This document shows, piece after piece, positions 8,401-15,435 of a stretch of 64,000 bases of DNA. Numbering within the stretch: position 1 is the stretch's first letter; every line of letters starts with the position of its first letter. Under the pieces are notes generated by a model. That model was given only the letters and a program-made list of their open reading frames with translations. It ran no database searches and was not told where the DNA came from. The stretch lies in assembly GCA_045629745.1 (NCBI GenBank), contig JAZQRU010000042.1:100039-164038 (forward strand). The letters are read 5' to 3'. Both the position numbers and the translations under genes were made by a program. Origin of the DNA: Eubacteriales bacterium. GTDB taxonomy: Bacteria > Bacillota > Clostridia > Oscillospirales > CAG-272.

Positions 8401-11400
8401 GCGAGCACGAGCTCAAGGCCTTTTACTTCAATGCATCTCACCATACTCACGAGTGCGAGTGCGGTTATAAGACCGGCGCAATTGACGGCAAGCTTACGAA
8501 TGACTACGATACCAACGAGCATTGGCAGAAATGCGAGCACGGTTACAAGACCGACGTAGAAGAACACGAATTCGTTGCGGTTATTTCCCAGTCGGGAGCA
8601 GATCACTCCTTGGTGTGCGAGTGCGGTTGCACCGTTTCAGGCGTAGCTCACGAATACAAGGCGGTATACGTTTCTGATGCTGAACATAAGCACGTTTGCG
8701 AGTGCGGTCACACATCAGAGGTCTTCGCAACTCCGTTGACTTATGCAAGCGACGCTGATAATCACTGGCGCGTATGCGAGCACAGATACGTAACGGATGC
8801 AAGCGAGCACTCTTTTGCTCCCGACCGTGACGAAAATAAACACTGGAACGGATGCGTTTGCGGTTGCACGACAAACGTTGAAGAGCACGAGTACACAGCA
8901 GTTTCCGTTTCGGAAACCGAGCATAAGCACGTATGTAAGTGCGGTTACGAAACCGAGGCAATAGTTGGCAAATTAGTCGGCGCAAGCGATCCGGATTACC
9001 ACTGGACAGAATGCGAGTGCCATATTATTGCAAGTGAGAAGATAGCTCACGAATTTGTCGGCAAAAATAATGAGACGGAACACTGGCTTGAATGCGAATG
9101 CGCTTGCAAGAAAGACTTTTCTTCTCATACTCTCGTTTCAAATAACGACGCAACGGGACACTGGACTGAGTGTGAGTGCGGCTTCAAGACCATAGTTGAA
9201 AATCACGAATACAACGCAGCTTACAACCTCGTTCAGCATTGGAAGGCTTGCGAATGCGGTTACGAAACAAATTTCTCAGATCACGAGCTTGAATATGCAA
9301 GCGACGAAAACGGACACTGGCTTGTATGCGAGTGCGGTTATGCGTCCGAGTCCGTAGCTCACGACCTTGAATCAAATCACGACTACGGCAAACACTGGAC
9401 CGAGTGCGACTGCGGCTACAAGACCAAAGGCATAGAACACGAGTTTAACAAAACAAAATTCAATAACGTTCAGCACTGGGTCGAATGCGAGTGCGGTGAA
9501 ATCAGCGGCATAGAGGAACACGTAATAACGGGTGTTCATTCAAGCGAAACAGGCCACTGGCACGAATGTTCCTGCGGTTATAACGATACTGAAACCAACC
9601 ACAACTTCAAGCCTGTTTACGTTTCCGAGAGCGAGCATAAGCACGTTTGCGAGTGCGGTTACGAGAGCGCGGTAATTGACACCGCTTTGACTCTTGGATA
9701 TACAGACGAAAACGGACATTGGCTTGAGTGCGACTGCGGCTACAAGGCAGATACTGCAGCTCACAATGTTGAAACGAAGACTAACGCCCTTGAACACTTT
9801 GGCGAATGCGCATGCGGATATAAGACCGCTAAAGAAAGCCACGGATTCAAGGCAGAGTTAGTAAGCAACGGTGAGCACAAACACGTTTGCGAGTGCGGTT
9901 ACGAGAGCGCGGTAATTGACACCGCTTTGACTCTTGAATATACAGACGAAAACGGACATTGGCTTGAATGCAATTGCGGTTACAAGGCAGAGCTTACGGC
10001 TCACGAAACAAGCATTCAAATGATTGACGAAAATCAGCACGTATTCGTTTGCGAGTGCGGATATGAAAGCGCGCCTGTTAATCACGAATATGAGGCAGTA
10101 TACGTTGACGACACCGTTCATAAGCACGTATGCGAGTGCGGTCACGAGTCAGAGCTTATTGACGGTACTTTAACCGTTGAATACAACGAAACCGTACACT
10201 TCGGCAAATGCGAGTGCGGTTATACGACCTACACGGAAGATCACAACGCAAACGTAAAATACGACGAGGACAGCCACTGGACCGAGTGCGATTGCGGTTA
10301 CACGGCAGGCGATACGCTTCACGTATACGAGACTGTATACGTAGATGACACAACGCATTATCACGCTTGTGCGTGCGGCCATACAAGTGGAATCCTCGAA
10401 GGCGGCTTAAGCGTTAAGTATAACGGTGAATCCCACTGGCTTGAGTGCAAGTGCGGATACACAGCTTACAATGCTCTTCATACTCTCTCCCCTGCAAATG
10501 ACGAAACGGGACATTGGACCGAGTGCGACTGCGGTTACAAGACCGCCGTTATTCCTCACAATTTCGAGCTCGAGGTTGTAAGCGATACTCAGCATTGTCA
10601 CGTTTGCGACTGCGGTTACTATGAATTTATTTTATCAGGCTCCGTAGCTCTTGACTATAAAGACGGTGAGGGACACTGGATTAAGTGCAATTGCGGTTAT
10701 GAGTCCGTAGTTGTAAATCACAGCCTTGTACGCAATAACGACGACAGCACACATTGGCTTGAGTGCGTGTGCGGATACAAGCAGAACGTTGAGCTTCACA
10801 AGCTCTCCCCTGTATACATCAACGAAGAACAGCATTACCACGTTTGCGATTGCGGTTACGAAACCGACGTCGTTACGGGCAACATTTGGGCAGCTTACAC
10901 CGATAACGATGGACACTGGATCGAATGCGGTTGCGGCTACAGCTCTGATGCGGCAGAGCATCAGCTCACTTATCATTACAGCGAAACCGAGCACTACGGC
11001 GTATGCATCTGCGGTTACACAACCACCGCTAAGAGCCATAATCTCAAGGCGGAATTCGTTAATAGCGACGAGCATCGCCACGTATGTGAATGCGGCTACG
11101 GTTCCGAAACCGTAGTCGGCGGCGTTGAAATCAAGTTCAACGAAACCGAGCACTACGGCGAATGCGAGTGCGGATATAAAACAGATAAGGAAGAGCATTT
11201 CCTCGAAACAGTAACCAACGGCGCTCACCACTGGAAAGCATGCGAGTGCGGTTACGACACCTTAGCCGACGCAGAGCTTACCATTAAGTATGATTCTAAC
11301 ACTCACTGGTTAGAGTGCATCTTCGGTTGCAAGACCAACGAAGAAGAACATAGCTTCGTACCGGGCGGCGACGAAAATGCCCACTGGCTTGAGTGCGAGT

Positions 11401-13097
11401 GCGGCTACAAGAAAGATATTGAAACGCACTATCTCAAACTCCAGTACGACGGTGCTAAGCATTGGTACTCCTGCAAGTGCGGTTACGAAAGCGTTGCCGC
11501 AAATCACAGCTATGCAATGTCTCTTGGTGACGAGTCTGAACACAAGCTTAAGTGCTCTTGCGGACATGAAACCGCAGAGCCCCACAACTATACTTACGTT
11601 TATCTTGACGAATCAACTCACACACCCGTATGTGCATGCGGTTACAAGGCAACTCCCAAAAATCACGACTACGCAGACACCTACAGTGCCGACGGACACT
11701 GGATTGAGTGCCGTTGCGGCTCCGAAGTTGATTTCGCCTCTCACGAGCTTGAGCCCAAGTCCGATGCTACTGCCCACTGGGATGAATGTGCGTGCGGATA
11801 CACGGTTAACTATAAAGTTCACGAATTTGAGTATACCAATGCAAATGATGCAGCTCACACAGTTGCTTGTGTTTGCGGATATACAACTGATTCTAATCAC
11901 GTATTCAAAGTATACTTCACCGATGCTACAGGGCACTGGGCCGAGTGCGATTGCGGTTACAAGAACGAGCTTCTAGAGCACAATCTTGTTATCACTTACC
12001 TTGACGCATCAGGTCACTGGCACAAATGCTCTGACTGTGGCTATGAGACCAAAAAGACGAGCCACGTTTGCAAGCTCATAAAAGACGACGATGGACACAC
12101 TTTAGTATGCAACGAATGCGGATACGTTGATATTCCCTACACTCTTCACACCGAAAGCGCTTTTGAAATCACCGTCGAAGCAAGCTGCACCGAAAACGGT
12201 TTAATTACTTACTTCTGCGAATGCGGAGTAGTATGCAGAGAAGAAATACTCTACGCTTCCATCTCTTCTAATCACAATAACCTGAAGCACGTTCCTGGAT
12301 ACGAGGCTTCTTGCGGTGAGGCGGGAAGAATTGAGTACTGGTACTGCGGTGATTGCGGAAATTACTTCAAGAACGCTGAGGCGACAGAGCTCATATCCTA
12401 CGAGGATACCTTCGTTTACGTAACTCACAACTTCGCAGACGGAGAGTGGGTTCTTAACGAAAACGGAACCACTCACGCAAAGAAGTGCGCTAACTGCGGT
12501 ATTCTCTCCGGTTGGGCAGATCACGTTATTACACGTTACTCCTCTGATGCTACCTCTCACTGGGTAGGCTGCGAATGCGGATACGTGAAGAGCGGTGAGA
12601 GCGTCGAAGAGCATAGCTTCGTTTATGCTTACAACAACGACTCTCACTACTACTCCTGCTCCGTATGCGGCTACACTGCCGTTGAAGATCACGAGCTTAT
12701 TTATAATATGAATGAAACTCATCATTGGTACGAATGTATATGCGGATACAAGACTCCCGAATTGCTTCACAAATTTGAGGCAAATTACAATGACGGCATT
12801 CATTATGAAGTATGTCCTTGCGGACACACCAAAAATGAAAGTCATCACACTCTCGTATTAACCTTTACGCCTGATGAACACTGGGTGGCTTGTACCGGAT
12901 GCGATTACACCGCCAAGCATACATCTCACGAGTTTGAAGTCAAGCATAGCGACACAAAGCATTGGATTGAATGCGCTTGCGGCTTGACAGCTTCTGTCGA
13001 AAATCATTCTATGAACACAATAACCGAAGGTAATTATTACTGGACGGAATGTAATTGCGGATTCAAGACCGCAAAGGTTGAAAAAGAAAACGAGTAA
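5484..13097 (+). CDS. giant Cys/His-rich repeat lipoprotein (2,537 aa), unknown function
   Basis: Uninterrupted ORF with a strong RBS. Signal peptide with lipobox (VFGFTAC|G). N- and C-terminal C-x3-G-x5-C-x2-C knuckle modules flank a central array of H-x3-C-x-C-G-Y units. Confidence 0.9.
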   Translation: MKTMKKLCLCILALLLVSITVFGFTACGNEEAEECVHEWGEWETVTEPTCVTAGKEKRVCALDTEGAHPEEREIPMLGHTFTTYVSNNDATCTADGTKSSACDVCGEVQKSSDFGSMLAHTFDKKVATEAYLNTPADCDDKATYFYSCECGEKGTKVFEDGDYLHTYAEAFSYDENKHWHACVCTDASCICDKRTGEAEHVWDDGKVAAQPTCDTEGNFVYTCACGATKSELIPFKHTLARTAKKNATCEADGNIEYWHCSDCGRYFTDAEAKTEIIADAIIINKLSHDFAGGNWICTETAHYKKCADCNTTDEENAKAHDFTPMSTSHQHWQGCECGYKKDVQDHSLTLRMNSEKHWFECLCGFKSAEQDHEEARDAIPSSSKDNTCFEDGYEIHKCATCNLDFTKIIPAAHSALNHFGSSDATCTEEGGIEYWQCELCDKYYKDNAATQEIQLKDISTAPLGHDFENGILKRDGEYHYTVCSRNECGVVDTESREAHTYESGFNATHHYDACSICGYKINESEHVWASSTVEREPTCTVEGIRKYTCECGATKEEAIPIRHELIYVDAKASTCTATGNIGYWYCAKCEKNFSDSSAQNELSASDIITDKTPHNFEEGVWTYDNAKHAKICKDCDATSEYKNHNYNINGKDSEKHWNECECGCRINVSAHGLVAEYIDENTHSISCVCGYGVSSAEHVLNAVYVNDFEHKHACVCGYETDVMPGALTAEDYDENRHVFACGCGYYTVTENHELYTVEIGISHHRHICECGYISEIIIGAVTYTHDSNGHFGECDCGYDTVAESHNLTVGYTDDTQHWHECECGYVTEIINTSVTIKYVDGQSSLYAASNTLGGHYAECDCGYRSELDSHTLVAAYDGEKHYEACGCGYITNEVNHSFKPVYVSDSEHKHECECGYVSETIDGGLGYSHDTIQHWVACGCGYTLEAEDHTVESGYNETKHYEGCACGYIETESEHELKAFYFNASHHTHECECGYKTGAIDGKLTNDYDTNEHWQKCEHGYKTDVEEHEFVAVISQSGADHSLVCECGCTVSGVAHEYKAVYVSDAEHKHVCECGHTSEVFATPLTYASDADNHWRVCEHRYVTDASEHSFAPDRDENKHWNGCVCGCTTNVEEHEYTAVSVSETEHKHVCKCGYETEAIVGKLVGASDPDYHWTECECHIIASEKIAHEFVGKNNETEHWLECECACKKDFSSHTLVSNNDATGHWTECECGFKTIVENHEYNAAYNLVQHWKACECGYETNFSDHELEYASDENGHWLVCECGYASESVAHDLESNHDYGKHWTECDCGYKTKGIEHEFNKTKFNNVQHWVECECGEISGIEEHVITGVHSSETGHWHECSCGYNDTETNHNFKPVYVSESEHKHVCECGYESAVIDTALTLGYTDENGHWLECDCGYKADTAAHNVETKTNALEHFGECACGYKTAKESHGFKAELVSNGEHKHVCECGYESAVIDTALTLEYTDENGHWLECNCGYKAELTAHETSIQMIDENQHVFVCECGYESAPVNHEYEAVYVDDTVHKHVCECGHESELIDGTLTVEYNETVHFGKCECGYTTYTEDHNANVKYDEDSHWTECDCGYTAGDTLHVYETVYVDDTTHYHACACGHTSGILEGGLSVKYNGESHWLECKCGYTAYNALHTLSPANDETGHWTECDCGYKTAVIPHNFELEVVSDTQHCHVCDCGYYEFILSGSVALDYKDGEGHWIKCNCGYESVVVNHSLVRNNDDSTHWLECVCGYKQNVELHKLSPVYINEEQHYHVCDCGYETDVVTGNIWAAYTDNDGHWIECGCGYSSDAAEHQLTYHYSETEHYGVCICGYTTTAKSHNLKAEFVNSDEHRHVCECGYGSETVVGGVEIKFNETEHYGECECGYKTDKEEHFLETVTNGAHHWKACECGYDTLADAELTIKYDSNTHWLECIFGCKTNEEEHSFVPGGDENAHWLECECGYKKDIETHYLKLQYDGAKHWYSCKCGYESVAANHSYAMSLGDESEHKLKCSCGHETAEPHNYTYVYLDESTHTPVCACGYKATPKNHDYADTYSADGHWIECRCGSEVDFASHELEPKSDATAHWDECACGYTVNYKVHEFEYTNANDAAHTVACVCGYTTDSNHVFKVYFTDATGHWAECDCGYKNELLEHNLVITYLDASGHWHKCSDCGYETKKTSHVCKLIKDDDGHTLVCNECGYVDIPYTLHTESAFEITVEASCTENGLITYFCECGVVCREEILYASISSNHNNLKHVPGYEASCGEAGRIEYWYCGDCGNYFKNAEATELISYEDTFVYVTHNFADGEWVLNENGTTHAKKCANCGILSGWADHVITRYSSDATSHWVGCECGYVKSGESVEEHSFVYAYNNDSHYYSCSVCGYTAVEDHELIYNMNETHHWYECICGYKTPELLHKFEANYNDGIHYEVCPCGHTKNESHHTLVLTFTPDEHWVACTGCDYTAKHTSHEFEVKHSDTKHWIECACGLTASVENHSMNTITEGNYYWTECNCGFKTAKVEKENE
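7440..12130 (+). repeat. in-frame coding tandem array of ~59 units of ~26-27 aa (super-repeat of 3 units, ~240 bp)
   Basis: I counted H-x3-C-x-C-G-[YHC] cores by eye from HWNECECGC (nt ~7450) to HTLVCNECGY (nt ~12125). Every third unit is of the EH[KYRC]HVCECGY type. Confidence 0.85.
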
Positions 13098-13229
13098 ACT
13101 TTAAAATTCACAATTCTTAAAACCAAATGATTGAGCTTGCCCGAATTTCGCTAAAAGCGTTTTTCGGGTGAGGCTCACGGACTTTGAAGAAGCAAAATAA
13201 TTTAGTGTTACATATTAAGGAGAAAGATT

Positions 13230-15290
13230 ATGAAGGCAAAAAGAAGGTTCTTGCTTTGCATTCTTTGTCTTGCGGCTCTTTCCACGGCAGTTTTCGGACT
13301 AAGCTCGTGCGGCGAAGAGACACTTGAAGAATGTCCACACTCTTGGAACAGTTGGGAAACCGTAATTCCCCCCACCTGTCAGGCAGAAGGACTTGAAAGA
13401 AGAGCTTGCAAGCTCAATTCTACACATATAGAAGAAAGAACGGTTGTAAAACTCGACCATTCTTTCGAGAATTACGTTTCAAATAATGACGCAACCTGCG
13501 CAAAATACGGCACTAAGACTGCTTATTGCACAACTCTCGGTTGCACTGTTTCAAATACTGTTGACGATATCGGATCACAGCTCCCCCACGATTTCACAGA
13601 AAAGGTAATCAGTGACGATTATCTTTTGAGAGCGCCTTCCTGCACTAAGCCCGCGTCTTACTACTACTCCTGCTATTGCGGCGCTTGCGGCACGGAAACC
13701 TTCCAAAACGGTGATCCCGTACACAGCTTTGGCACTGAGCTTGTTTTCGACGAAGAAAGCCATTGGTACGAATGCTCACTTTGCGGTGAAAAGAATGAGC
13801 TTGCAGCTCACGAGTGGGATGAGGGCGAAGTCGTCAGCGAGGCAAATTGTACCGAAGACGGTAAAAAGGTTTACACATGCGAATGCGGAGCCACGAAAGA
13901 AGAGACAACTCCCGCGCATCACACTCTCACTTACGTTAAAGAAGTTTCCGCCACCTGTACTCTTGAAGGAAGCATTGCTTACTGGCAGTGCTCAGTAGAA
14001 GAATGTGGTAAGAAATTCTCTGATGAAAAGGCAGAGAATGAAATAACGGAGATTAAGACTCTTATCGTTGAACATAGCTACGCATTGTGGACTCACGATA
14101 AAGACGGTCATGCTAAGAAATGCATCTGGTGCGAAGAAACTATTGACGAAAAGGCTCACGAGTTTAAAGACGGATACGACGCAGGATATCATTTCACAAA
14201 ATGCGAGTGCGGATACGTATCCTCATCTGAAGCTCACAATATTTCCGTTCATAAAAACGCAGACGCACACTGGAACGAGTGCACAAAATGCGATTACGTT
14301 TCCGCAAAAGCGGAGCACACCAACGAAACTCGCTCATCTTCAACTCAGCACTGGGAAGCTTGCACTTACTGTGACTGCGCGCTTGATAGATTCAATCACG
14401 AGTACGACGACGGTGTTGTAACGAAAGAGGCGAGCTGCACTGAATACGGAATTAAGACCTACACCTGCGCTTGCGGCGCAACCGTTACCGAAAAGATAGC
14501 TCCACATCACACGTATTCCGAGCTTATTCCTACGGTTGATTCGACCTGTACAGAAGAGGGCACAAAGGCTCATTACGTTTGTCTTGTATGCGAAAAGCGC
14601 TTCGTAAATACTCTCGGTATGACAGATAACTTAACCATAGCAATAAAAGAGCATAGCTGGGCTAAAAAACACGTTTCCGCCGAAGGTCACTTTAATGAAT
14701 GCGTTGACTGCGGCGCGAAAGAGCTTAATGCACAGACTAATGAAGTGATAATTGTGCCTCACACCCTTGTTCCCTCTATGGGTGACGGAGAAGCGCATTA
14801 CGATGTGTGCGAATGCTCTTACAAGGAAAACGTTGAAACTCACTTCTGGGGCGGCGGTATTGTAACCACCCCCGCAGATTGCTTCAATAACGGTGTAAAA
14901 ACCTATACCTGCTATTGCTGCGGCAATACAAAGACCGAGATTGTTCCGTGCCATACCTTGACGTTTGTTGAGGCTAAGGCCGCTACCACATGCGAAGACG
15001 GCAATATTGCTTATCTCCGTTGCGACGTTTGCCAGAATGCTTATTATGCCCCTGGCGCAACTGCAGGCAATCACGACCATCTCACCGCGCCTGACGTTAT
15101 AATCCCTGCTCCCCACGATTTTGTGGGCGGCGAGGTTAAATATGGCGATAACGGTCACTGGATCGTGTGCGTTCACTGCGATGAAACCTCCGCCGTAGTG
15201 CCTCACTCAACCGAAAGAACAGGTCCGGATGCAGACGGTTATTTCTGGATTGAGTGCAAGGATTGCGAACATAAAAAGAGAGAAAATTAA
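13230..15290 (+). CDS. Cys/His-rich lipoprotein (686 aa), short paralogue of the giant protein
   Basis: AAGGAG RBS and lipobox (VFGLSSC|G). The first ~300 aa are collinear with the giant protein (ECPHSWNSWETV.PPTC... versus ECVHEWGEWETVTEPTC...). It contains a few HW.EC.CGY-type units. Confidence 0.88.
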   Translation: MKAKRRFLLCILCLAALSTAVFGLSSCGEETLEECPHSWNSWETVIPPTCQAEGLERRACKLNSTHIEERTVVKLDHSFENYVSNNDATCAKYGTKTAYCTTLGCTVSNTVDDIGSQLPHDFTEKVISDDYLLRAPSCTKPASYYYSCYCGACGTETFQNGDPVHSFGTELVFDEESHWYECSLCGEKNELAAHEWDEGEVVSEANCTEDGKKVYTCECGATKEETTPAHHTLTYVKEVSATCTLEGSIAYWQCSVEECGKKFSDEKAENEITEIKTLIVEHSYALWTHDKDGHAKKCIWCEETIDEKAHEFKDGYDAGYHFTKCECGYVSSSEAHNISVHKNADAHWNECTKCDYVSAKAEHTNETRSSSTQHWEACTYCDCALDRFNHEYDDGVVTKEASCTEYGIKTYTCACGATVTEKIAPHHTYSELIPTVDSTCTEEGTKAHYVCLVCEKRFVNTLGMTDNLTIAIKEHSWAKKHVSAEGHFNECVDCGAKELNAQTNEVIIVPHTLVPSMGDGEAHYDVCECSYKENVETHFWGGGIVTTPADCFNNGVKTYTCYCCGNTKTEIVPCHTLTFVEAKAATTCEDGNIAYLRCDVCQNAYYAPGATAGNHDHLTAPDVIIPAPHDFVGGEVKYGDNGHWIVCVHCDETSAVVPHSTERTGPDADGYFWIECKDCEHKKREN

Positions 15291-15302
15291 ATACTAAAAA
15301 CC

Positions 15303-15330
15303 AAAGGGCTTCCAAATTGGAAGCCCTTTT
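15303..15330 (+). terminator. rho-independent terminator after the lipoprotein pair
   Basis: AAAGGGCTTCC-aaatt-GGAAGCCCTTT hairpin running into a T tract. Confidence 0.65.
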
Positions 15331-15370
15331 ACTTAATATTGGGTTGTACCGATCAGCTTTATTATTAACA

Positions 15371-15396
15371 AAAAAGAGCCTTTTGAGCTCTTTTTT
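15371..15396. terminator. A/T-flanked hairpin, probable terminator of the convergent minus-strand glycan operon (bidirectional)
   Basis: AAAAAGAGC-cttttga-GCTCTTTTT, symmetric A and T tracts. It sits between convergent genes. Confidence 0.55.
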
Positions 15397-15435
15397 ATTT
15401 ACATATTTTATCTAAAATATTTTATTGCGCTTTAT

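What the first reader, a model, noticed from the sequence alone, without database searches (positions are those of the whole stretch)
13230..15290. Adjacent short paralogue shares the cap modules of the giant protein: a two-gene family locus
The 686-aa lipoprotein immediately downstream is collinear with the first ~300 aa of the giant protein. Examples: ECPHSWNSWETVIPPTCQAEGLERRACKL / ECVHEWGEWETVTEPTCVTAGKEKRVCAL; YVSNNDATCAKYGTKTAYC / YVSNNDATCTADGTKSSAC; EANCTEDGKKVYTCECGATKEETTP / QPTCDTEGNFVYTCACGATKSELIP.

It also shares the knuckle module C-[TD]-x-x-G-x5-C-x2-C-(G) followed by H-x-[FLW], which also caps the C-terminus of the giant protein (nt ~12130-13090). It has only a handful of H-x3-C-x-C-G-Y units.

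The family therefore seems to consist of conserved N- and C-terminal cap regions with an expandable middle. The gene pair may represent short and long isoforms of one surface structure. The 132-nt spacer (13098-13229) has a bulged hairpin (GAGC..CCCGAA / TTCGGG..GCTC) but no T tract, so the two genes may be co-transcribed with partial attenuation.
Basis: seen in the sequence. Interest (0 to 1): 0.6.

Follow-up and report, generated by a model that had tools for sequence, protein, structure and literature searches.

The report
Short paralogue of giant metal-stapled lipoprotein
Next to a 2,537-residue surface lipoprotein of an uncultured gut Clostridia bacterium lies a conserved 686-residue sister gene that copies only the giant's membrane-anchored base, so the cell probably displays one fixed-length and one variable-length rod built from the same putative zinc-clamped mini-modules.

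Summary
The 686-aa lipoprotein (13230-15290) aligns in one collinear stretch over its whole length with residues 1-661 of the upstream giant (34% identity, E 2e-104). With every Cys and His masked, the alignment score is still 76 sd above shuffles.

The "cap module" is a roughly 138-aa super-module of three four-ligand sites (HCCH, CCCH, CCCH). It occurs three times in the short protein and 3+1 times in the giant.

Seven related metagenomic or MAG loci keep the pair. The short is always 684-688 aa, while complete giants range from 1780 to 2689 aa through array size alone. Both genes are under purifying selection (dN/dS 0.12-0.32), and the duplication predates the split of these lineages.

No Pfam or NCBIfam model matches. 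The only solved-structure relative by sequence is the Thomasclavelia ramosa IgA protease, in its predicted zinc-binding rod domains ZBD1/2 (= CTD2/4). AlphaFold models are all-beta and confident (pLDDT 80 and 89), with no PDB fold match.

The spacer hairpin is real and conserved with compensatory changes.

Verdict: a new variant of a recently proposed module kind, of moderate interest.

The parts
5408..5436 (+). Promoter of the giant gene: TTGCTT, 17 nt, TG-extended TATAAT
   Evidence: Read from the sequence. Conserved in 5 related loci. The consensus scan did not list it because the -35 hexamer matches only 3 of 6.
5484..13097 (+). Giant paralogue, a 2537-aa lipoprotein. It comprises an N-terminal base (aa 1-~655), an array of about 60 H-x3-C-x-C units (aa ~656-2215), and a C-terminal region holding a fourth super-module (aa ~2216-2537).
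13132..13177 (+). Conserved bulged hairpin in the intergenic spacer, without a T tract
   Evidence: Fold. In the alignment of 7 loci, 5 of the 23 predicted pairs of the whole-spacer consensus fold are kept through changes on both sides; all five lie in this hairpin. Unique in the genome.
13178..13229 (+). Nearly invariant 3' block of the spacer, ending in the Shine-Dalgarno sequence AAGGAG (13217-13222) 7 nt before the ATG
   Evidence: It is more conserved than the coding sequence (57-75% aa identity). No clear consensus promoter lies in it.
13230..13310 (+). Signal peptide and lipobox (L-S-S-C27) of the short protein
   Evidence: Sequence. The model shows a helix at aa 2-24 and a low-confidence tether at aa 26-36. 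Lgt and LspA genes are present in the genome.
13311..13709 (+). Non-repeated base region, aa 28-160, with three Cys/His sites. It is shared with the giant and with other giant lipoproteins of the genus.
13710..14123 (+). Super-module 1 (aa 161-298), with sites H178/C182/C185/H194, C207/C217/C219/H231 and C243/C254/C259/H282
   Evidence: AlphaFold2 gives pLDDT 88.9.
14124..14297 (+). Start of the run of single HCCH units, aa 299-356, with the sites starting at H294, H321 and H347. The H374 unit lies at the start of the super-module 2 segment and is an extra unit absent from the giant.
14298..14711 (+). Super-module 2 (aa 357-494)
14742..15155 (+). Super-module 3 (aa 505-642)
15156..15290 (+). 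Last HCCH unit (H643/C647/C650/H659), a degenerate terminal unit that aligns with the first array unit of the giant, and the stop codon
15303..15329 (.). Strong two-way terminator hairpin after the short gene: 12 pairs, followed by TTTTACTT on the + strand

Best explanation
The gene at 13230-15290 encodes a lipid-anchored extracellular rod of fixed length. After a short flexible tether, the whole mature chain (about 660 aa) is a string of about 17-18 small beta-hairpin or beta-sheet modules. Each module is clamped to the next by a four-ligand Cys/His site (HCCH or CCCH) that most probably holds zinc.

The gene is an old tandem duplicate of the base (first ~660 aa) of the upstream giant lipoprotein. 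It has been kept under purifying selection at constant length. The giant instead carries a repeat array of variable size plus one more super-module at its far end.

The cell would thus display two stalks from one module kit, a short one and a long length-variable one, both without any recognisable enzymatic or adhesive head. They would act as surface spacers or fibrils.

The two genes are probably read from the giant's conserved promoter. The conserved T-less hairpin between them would then set the ratio of the two messages.

Shown here: paralogy, collinearity, conservation of the pair, the ligand pattern, homology to the IgA-protease ZBD modules, and the all-beta prediction.

Inferred: metal binding, rod shape and length, surface display, co-transcription, and function.
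For: Paralogy and collinearity:
- Paralogy is shown.
- The pair is conserved in 7 loci. Shorts are 684-688 aa; the five complete giants are 1780-2689 aa.
- The first-370-aa tree gives a giant clade (support 84/94) and a short clade (91/92).
- dN/dS is 0.12-0.30 for the short gene while dS reaches 1.9.

Ligand pattern:
- Among 9 orthologues, 45 of 49 mature Cys and 27 of 37 His are invariant, against 35% of all residues.
- In 33 aligned super-modules the only invariant residues are H18, C22, C25, H34, C47, G51, C57, C59, H71, G87, C94, C99 and H122.

Metal rather than disulfide:
- Sites with three Cys plus one His give odd Cys counts.
- Two array units of the giant read C-E-H where the others read C-x-C.
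- No DsbB or VKOR is found in the 94%-complete genome.

Homology:
- The only PDB sequence relative is 9qa6_A, the T. ramosa IgA protease, at E 3e-8 for the single sequence and 2.5e-10 for the profile. The match falls in the stretches corresponding to ZBD1 and ZBD2.
- Two 2025 papers describe those domains as putative 2His+2Cys and 3Cys+1His zinc sites that link small beta sheets. SAXS shows an extended rod (PMC12237041; PMC12415215).

Structure prediction:
- The whole-protein model has pLDDT 79.7 and pTM 0.27, with 49 short strands and no helix outside the signal peptide.
- The super-module model has pLDDT 88.9.

Lipoprotein processing: Lgt and LspA are present.

Stalk use elsewhere: relatives combine these modules with cohesin, BspA-type LRR, SLH, CBM_X2, dockerin and transglutaminase-like domains.

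Transcription:
- The giant has a conserved TG-extended -10 promoter. The spacer has none that is clear.
- The hairpin is conserved with compensatory changes.
Against: - No experiment shows metal binding for this module in any protein. In the IgA protease the ZBD regions are predicted, not resolved.
- I could not inspect model coordinates, so the ligand geometry in my models is unverified.
- No expression data could be obtained, so co-transcription and even expression are inferred from selection alone.
- A weak promoter inside the conserved 3' spacer block (TTGAAG, 16-19 nt, TTACAT) cannot be excluded.
- No head domain means no direct clue to a ligand or partner.
- The organism is uncultured, and its wall architecture is assumed from its taxonomic relatives.
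Confidence: 0.6

Rival explanations
1. The short protein is not an independent stalk. It would be a partner of the giant: its base-like rod would pair side by side with the homologous base of the giant, or seed or anchor it, to make a hetero-oligomeric fibre root.
For: The two proteins share the whole base region in collinear order. They are always adjacent and co-oriented. The short one stops exactly where the giant's array begins. The fixed length of 684-688 aa matches the fixed length of the giant's base.
Against: There is no evidence of interaction. The PNAS paper argues that the Cys/His sites are fully coordinated and leave no site free for metal-mediated oligomerisation. At 34% identity the surfaces have diverged strongly. 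Four other giants of the genus with a related N-terminus have no such neighbour.
Confidence: 0.12
2. The main role of the pair is to bind metal at the cell surface, as a zinc or other thiophilic-metal buffer, store or detoxifying sink. The short protein would offer about 18 sites and the giant about 90.
For: The density of conserved Cys/His four-ligand sites is very high: 7.6% Cys in both proteins, with 5.4% His in the short and 7.4% in the giant. There is no other domain.
Against: Fully coordinated Cys/His sites of this kind are, from general knowledge of structural zinc sites, tight and slow to exchange, which makes them poor buffers. The same modules serve as linkers in proteins with enzymatic or binding heads. 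No metal transporter or regulator lies nearby.
Confidence: 0.08
3. The Cys form disulfide bonds, as in EGF-like or knottin-like extracellular repeats, and the His are incidental.
For: The protein is extracellular and Cys-rich, and nothing shows metal directly.
Against: Many modules have three invariant Cys plus one invariant His. 73% of the His are invariant. There are Cys-to-His swaps at ligand positions. The genome lacks DsbB and VKOR. The host lineage consists of gut anaerobes. Neither the experimental structures nor the predicted models of the IgA protease show any disulfide bond.
Confidence: 0.07
4. The short gene is a functionless leftover of a partial duplication of the giant's 5' end.
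For: It corresponds exactly to a 5' fragment of the giant and ends within the first array unit.
Against: dN/dS is 0.12-0.30 with saturated dS. Frames are intact and lengths are 684-688 aa in all seven lineages. The Shine-Dalgarno sequence and lipobox are conserved. The gene has its own strong terminator. It has gained one unit that the giant lacks.
Confidence: 0.03

Closest known systems
ZBD1/ZBD2 (PLoS Pathog 2025, PMC12237041), also called CTD2/CTD4 (PNAS 2025, PMC12415215), of the Thomasclavelia ramosa M64 IgA protease (PDB entry 9qa6 holds the sequence; these domains are not resolved)
   Same: Sequence homology, at E 3e-8 to 2.5e-10. The same ligand grammar: 2His+2Cys and 3Cys+1His sites between small beta sheets. 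Both are all-beta with no hydrophobic-core domain, and neither has a solved structural homologue. Both are extracellular in a Bacillota organism.
   Different: In the protease, two short inserts (130 and 70 aa) sit in the stalk of a sortase-anchored enzyme. Here the whole mature protein consists of such modules (about 18 sites in the short, about 90 in the giant). It is anchored at the N-terminus by a lipid, has no head domain, and occurs as a tandem pair of paralogues.
Periscope proteins (variable-length repeat stalks such as SasG, Aap and Rib-domain proteins, as discussed in PMC12415215)
   Same: Works alike: a rod of repeated small domains whose number differs between relatives. The giant ranges from 1780 to 2689 aa, which would change how far the tip stands from the cell.
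   Different: Repeats are 60-83% identical at the DNA level and Tandem Repeats Finder finds no array. There is no functional head. The anchor is a lipobox, not LPXTG. The short paralogue does not vary in length.
Classical zinc ribbons and zinc knuckles (for example the TFIIS C-terminal domain and the RNA polymerase I A12.2 ribbon)
   Same: Four Cys/His ligands carried on beta hairpins. There is a weak partial fold match to 6hlq_I (48 columns, probability 0.41), in line with the remark in PMC12237041.
   Different: No Pfam zinc-ribbon model reaches its threshold. The sites bridge successive modules in a continuous extracellular rod and do not form an isolated intracellular domain.

Membership tests
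ZBD/CTD2-4 'metal-associated periscope' module of T. ramosa IgA protease | Detectable sequence homology to ZBD1/ZBD2 | tested here: met
   phmmer gives E 3.2e-8 and the profile of 9 orthologues gives E 2.5e-10. Matched chain residues are 852-971 and 1062-1141.
ZBD/CTD2-4 'metal-associated periscope' module of T. ramosa IgA protease | Sites of 2 His + 2 Cys or 3 Cys + 1 His recurring along the chain | tested here: met
   Invariant columns are almost only C and H. About 17-18 such sites can be laid out along the short protein, accounting for nearly all of the 49 mature Cys.
ZBD/CTD2-4 'metal-associated periscope' module of T. ramosa IgA protease | Small beta sheets placed end to end, forming an extended rod | tested here: inconclusive
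   The models are all-beta with short strands. pTM is 0.27 for the whole chain and 0.59 for one super-module, which fits a rod. No coordinates or SAXS data were available to measure shape.
ZBD/CTD2-4 'metal-associated periscope' module of T. ramosa IgA protease | Zinc actually bound | not testable with these tools
   Zinc binding is also unproven for the reference domains, which are described as 'putative, pending experimental validation'.
Bacterial lipoprotein (Lgt/LspA pathway) | Signal peptide with a lipobox Cys | tested here: met
   The sequence reads MKAKRRFLLCILCLAALSTAVFGLSS-C27. This is conserved in all orthologues.
Bacterial lipoprotein (Lgt/LspA pathway) | Lgt and signal peptidase II encoded in the genome | tested here: met
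   PF01790 is found at E 7e-67 and PF01252 at E 4e-37.
Periscope proteins | Length variation by number of tandem repeats | tested here: not met
   The short protein is 684-688 aa in every locus. The feature is met only by the neighbouring giant.
Periscope proteins | Near-identical DNA repeats | tested here: not met
   Tandem Repeats Finder finds nothing. Units are 60-83% identical. The one exception is a single 85-nt duplicate in the giant.
Periscope proteins | A functional head domain carried on the stalk, with a wall anchor at the other end | tested here: not met
   There are no Pfam or NCBIfam domains. The anchor is an N-terminal lipobox.
Pfam zinc-ribbon and zinc-finger families | A match above the curated threshold | tested here: not met
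   The best hit is Zn_ribbon_NUD at 13 bits against a cut-off of 24.8.

The most novel reading that the evidence does not exclude
The giant and the short protein together form a previously undescribed kind of bacterial surface appendage: head-less, lipid-rooted fibres stapled by metal ions. The fixed-length paralogue would set or template the base, for example by spanning the wall and the adjacent glycan layer. The array of the giant would tune reach. Fibre integrity would depend on zinc availability in the gut.
Probability: 0.15. Interest if true: 0.7.

Novelty: new variant of a known kind. Interest (0 to 1): 0.45.

Why it matters
The Cys/His rod module was proposed only in 2025, from two inserts in one IgA protease, and it has no Pfam model and no solved structure. 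Related modules are nevertheless very common: 20,524 cluster representatives match, as do about a third of the genomes sampled across this order.

This locus offers the module in pure form and in two natural sizes. The 660-aa short protein, or its 138-aa super-module (predicted at pLDDT 89), is a far more tractable target than the 2,537-aa giant. It could be used to test zinc stoichiometry, to test chelation-dependent folding, and to obtain the first structure.

The conserved long/short pairing also raises the question of whether gut Clostridia build layered surface brushes from such rods.

Tried and rejected
- Pfam and NCBIfam scans of both proteins found nothing above threshold. The same is true for the third family member.
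- An Rfam scan of the whole window found no family.
- Tandem Repeats Finder reported no array.
- Foldseek of the whole-protein model returned only spurious beta-propeller hits (TM 0.05-0.08, rmsd above 40 A). For the super-module model the best E-value was 0.19.
- The promoter-like site at 13078-13107 from the scan is not conserved in the related loci, and I dropped it.
- I tested whether the spacer derives from the giant's upstream region. The similarity is limited to the Shine-Dalgarno sequence and the start of the gene (score 30 against a shuffle maximum of 25).
- I tested one-to-one relationships between the super-modules of the short protein and those of the giant. Each positional copy is monophyletic across species, but the deep branching is unresolved.
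- I looked for the same pair elsewhere in the genus. None of 200 sampled species has an orthologue of the short protein. None of the four related giants I could check has a family member within 7 kb downstream.
Full report
**What is there.** ORF 13230-15290 (+) encodes 686 aa, and ORF 5484-13097 (+) encodes 2537 aa. Both begin with a basic n-region, a hydrophobic core and a lipobox Cys (LSSC27 and FTAC27). The genome encodes Lgt and signal peptidase II. Both proteins are 7.6% Cys. His makes up 5.4% of the short protein and 7.4% of the giant. Neither matches any Pfam or NCBIfam model.

**Check of the observation.**
- BLASTP aligns short 1-677 with giant 1-661 in one collinear HSP: 34% identity, 10% gaps, E 2e-104. 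The short protein is therefore collinear with the giant's N-terminal 660 aa over its whole length, not only over 300 aa.
- The first ~365 aa are the most similar part (42%).
- The Smith-Waterman score is 1010 against 65 +/- 12 for shuffled sequence.
- With every Cys and His masked it is still 439 against 41 +/- 5.
- The masked short protein against a same-sized piece of the giant's array scores only 59. The similarity is thus not a Cys/His framework effect.
- Identity at non-C/H positions is 28%.
- The short protein ends inside the giant's first array unit (FWIECKDCEH against HWNECECGCR). It carries one HCCH unit (aa ~366-392) that the giant lacks.

**Module anatomy.**
- A super-module of about 138 aa recurs three times in the short protein (nt 13710-14123, 14298-14711 and 14742-15155).
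- It recurs four times in the giant, three in the base and one near the C-terminus.
- Across 33 copies from seven loci, the only invariant residues are H18, C22, C25, H34 / C47, G51, C57, C59, H71 / G87, C94, C99, H122. These correspond to three four-ligand sites, of which the first is HCCH and the second CCCH. The third is also CCCH, but only C94, C99 and H122 are invariant; its first Cys (C83 of the segment) is displaced by one column in the third super-module copies.
- Between and after the super-modules lie single HCCH units.
- In total I count 8 H-x3-C-x(1,2)-C units and 7 units of the type C-x2-3-G-x4-7-C-x1-4-C.
- That is about 17-18 sites, which account for nearly all of the 49 mature Cys.
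- Among nine orthologues with 58-95% identity, 92% of mature Cys and 73% of His are invariant, against 35% of all residues.

**The pair is conserved, and only the giant varies in length.**
- Orthologues of the short protein (57-95% identity) were traced to seven further contigs or MAGs.
- In each, a giant gene lies directly upstream in the same orientation.
- Shorts are 684-688 aa. Complete giants are 1780, 2537, 2605, 2682 and 2689 aa.
- In all giants the A-type modules of the base sit at the same positions and the last ~300 aa are conserved. The H-x3-C-x-C array holds 35 to 64 units.
- Tandem Repeats Finder sees no DNA array, and units are mostly 60-83% identical.
- One 85-nt segment recurs 240 nt downstream with a single mismatch, which shows recent exchange in three-unit register.
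- A tree of the first 370 aa separates giants (84/94) from shorts (91/92), so the duplication predates the split of these lineages.
- Each positional super-module is monophyletic across species, but which short copy pairs with which giant copy is unresolved.
- dN/dS is 0.12-0.30 for the short gene, 0.16-0.28 for the giant's base and 0.20-0.32 for its C-terminal region, with dS up to 1.9.

**Distribution.**
- HMMER against 1.84 billion representatives finds 20,524 proteins at E <= 1e-3 and 7,290 at E <= 1e-10, some up to 7,583 aa long.
- Relatives in the word-indexed search carry cohesin, BspA-type LRR, SLH, CBM_X2, Big_2, dockerin or transglutaminase-like domains. Elsewhere, then, the modules sit in proteins with working heads.
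- The module is present in 71 of 201 genomes drawn across the order, covering 50 of 121 genera.
- Named relatives are MAGs of Acutalibacteraceae, Oscillospiraceae and Clostridia.
- The pair itself is narrow in distribution. None of 200 sampled congeneric species has an orthologue of the short protein.
- Nineteen of those species have ORFs with a related stretch. The five best of these, on ORFs of 1377-3120 aa, match the short protein's N-terminus: three over aa 1-123/124 at 43-45% identity, one over aa 1-110 at 41%, and one over aa 1-311 at 36%.
- None of the four such giants that I could inspect has a family member within 7 kb downstream.
- The window's own genome has one further member, on another contig.

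**Closest known.**
- The only PDB chain with sequence similarity is 9qa6_A, the IgA protease of Thomasclavelia ramosa, at E 3e-8 for the single sequence and 2.5e-10 for the profile.
- The match covers chain residues 852-971 and 1062-1141. Allowing for the construct offset, these correspond to ZBD1 and ZBD2.
- PMC12237041 describes these domains as predicted. Each putative zinc site is bound by two His and two Cys, or by three Cys and one His. [quoted passage not shown] The cryo-EM model ends before these domains.
- PMC12415215 calls the same domains CTD2 and CTD4. SAXS shows that isolated CTD2 is a fully extended rod, and the authors propose an 'uncharacterized periscope domain fold'.

**Structure prediction.**
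- The whole short protein, folded with a 20-sequence alignment, gives mean pLDDT 79.7 and pTM 0.27. It has 49 short strands, a helix only in the signal peptide, and a disordered tether at aa 26-36.
- Super-module 1, folded with 33 aligned copies, gives pLDDT 88.9, with 100 of 138 residues at 90 or above.
- Foldseek against the PDB gives only spurious propeller matches for the whole chain. For the super-module nothing falls below E 0.19. The one suggestive partial hit is the zinc ribbon of Pol I subunit A12.2.
- I had no access to coordinates, so ligand geometry was not checked.

**Metal or disulfide.** Five points favour metal.
- Many sites have three Cys plus one His.
- The His are strongly conserved.
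- Two giant units read C-E-H where all others read C-x-C.
- DsbB and VKOR are absent from a 94%-complete genome.
- The relatives are gut anaerobes.

None of this is direct proof.

**The spacer.**
- The 132-nt spacer holds a bulged hairpin at 13132-13177, with no T tract after it.
- In seven loci the hairpin is kept: all five pairs of the spacer's consensus fold that are maintained through changes on both sides lie in it.
- The 52 nt from 13178 to the ATG are almost invariant, more so than the proteins.
- They contain the Shine-Dalgarno sequence but no convincing consensus promoter. TTGAAG followed after 16-19 nt by TTACAT is the best candidate.
- The giant has a conserved TTGCTT-17-TG-n-TATAAT promoter at 5408-5436.
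- A strong terminator follows the short gene at 15303-15329.

**How it most likely works.** The short protein is a lipid-rooted rod of constant length that repeats the giant's base. The giant adds a variable array and a terminal super-module. From the model, each ~26-aa unit contributes two 5-6-residue strands. If each unit adds about 2 nm, the short rod would be a few tens of nm long and the giant well over 100 nm. This is a rough estimate and was not measured. Neither protein has a head domain, so I read them as surface spacers or fibrils of two lengths made from one kit. The partner, metal-sink, disulfide and dead-duplicate readings are listed as rivals.

**Novelty and score.** The module kind is known, though only as a 2025 prediction. 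An earlier follow-up in this scan reached the same comparison for the giant. I had found the PDB hit independently beforehand. What this finding adds:
- the conserved fixed-length paralogue;
- the definition of the super-module;
- evidence that only the array varies;
- the conserved intergenic hairpin.

I rate it a new variant of a known kind, with interest 0.45.

Noticed in passing
own genome contig C26:12973-14697 (-), outside the window: A third family member. The ORF is 575 aa and encodes a lipoprotein (VLVSCGG) with several modules of the TC..G....Y.C..C...TE type. It ends in a Cys-free C-terminal domain of about 190 aa that has no Pfam match.
   Followed up: partly
window 14916-14918 (aa 563): The window's copy reads YTCYCCGNT where all eight orthologues read YTC[YF]-C[GS]. 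This is a one-codon insertion that adds an extra Cys at a ligand-bearing knuckle.
   Followed up: no
window 5356-5411: Two blocks upstream of the giant's promoter (CATTTGTGCATATTGTCTATCTTTTT and TATTTTACGCGCAAAAT) are nearly invariant in five loci whose proteins are only 62-86% identical. They may be an operator for an unknown regulator.
   Followed up: no
window 8508-8570 and 8750-8793: Two array units of the giant encode C-E-H-G/R-Y instead of C-x-C-G-Y. This Cys-to-His swap at a ligand position fits metal binding better than disulfides.
   Followed up: partly
window 9643-9727 and 9883-9967: An 85-nt segment is repeated 240 nt downstream with one mismatch. This points to a recent three-unit exchange inside an otherwise diverged array.
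   Followed up: yes
window 15291-15435, compared with L013, L014, L015, L017-L022: In at least nine of the related loci an iron-type alcohol dehydrogenase gene (365-369 aa, minus strand) lies between the short gene and the next downstream genes. In this window it is missing, and the UDP-GlcNAc 2-epimerase gene follows directly after two terminators.
   Followed up: no
window 13178-13229: The last 52 nt before the short gene's start codon are almost invariant across lineages with saturated synonymous divergence (dS up to 1.9). This is more conservation than a ribosome-binding site alone would need. The block is unique in the genome.
   Followed up: partly
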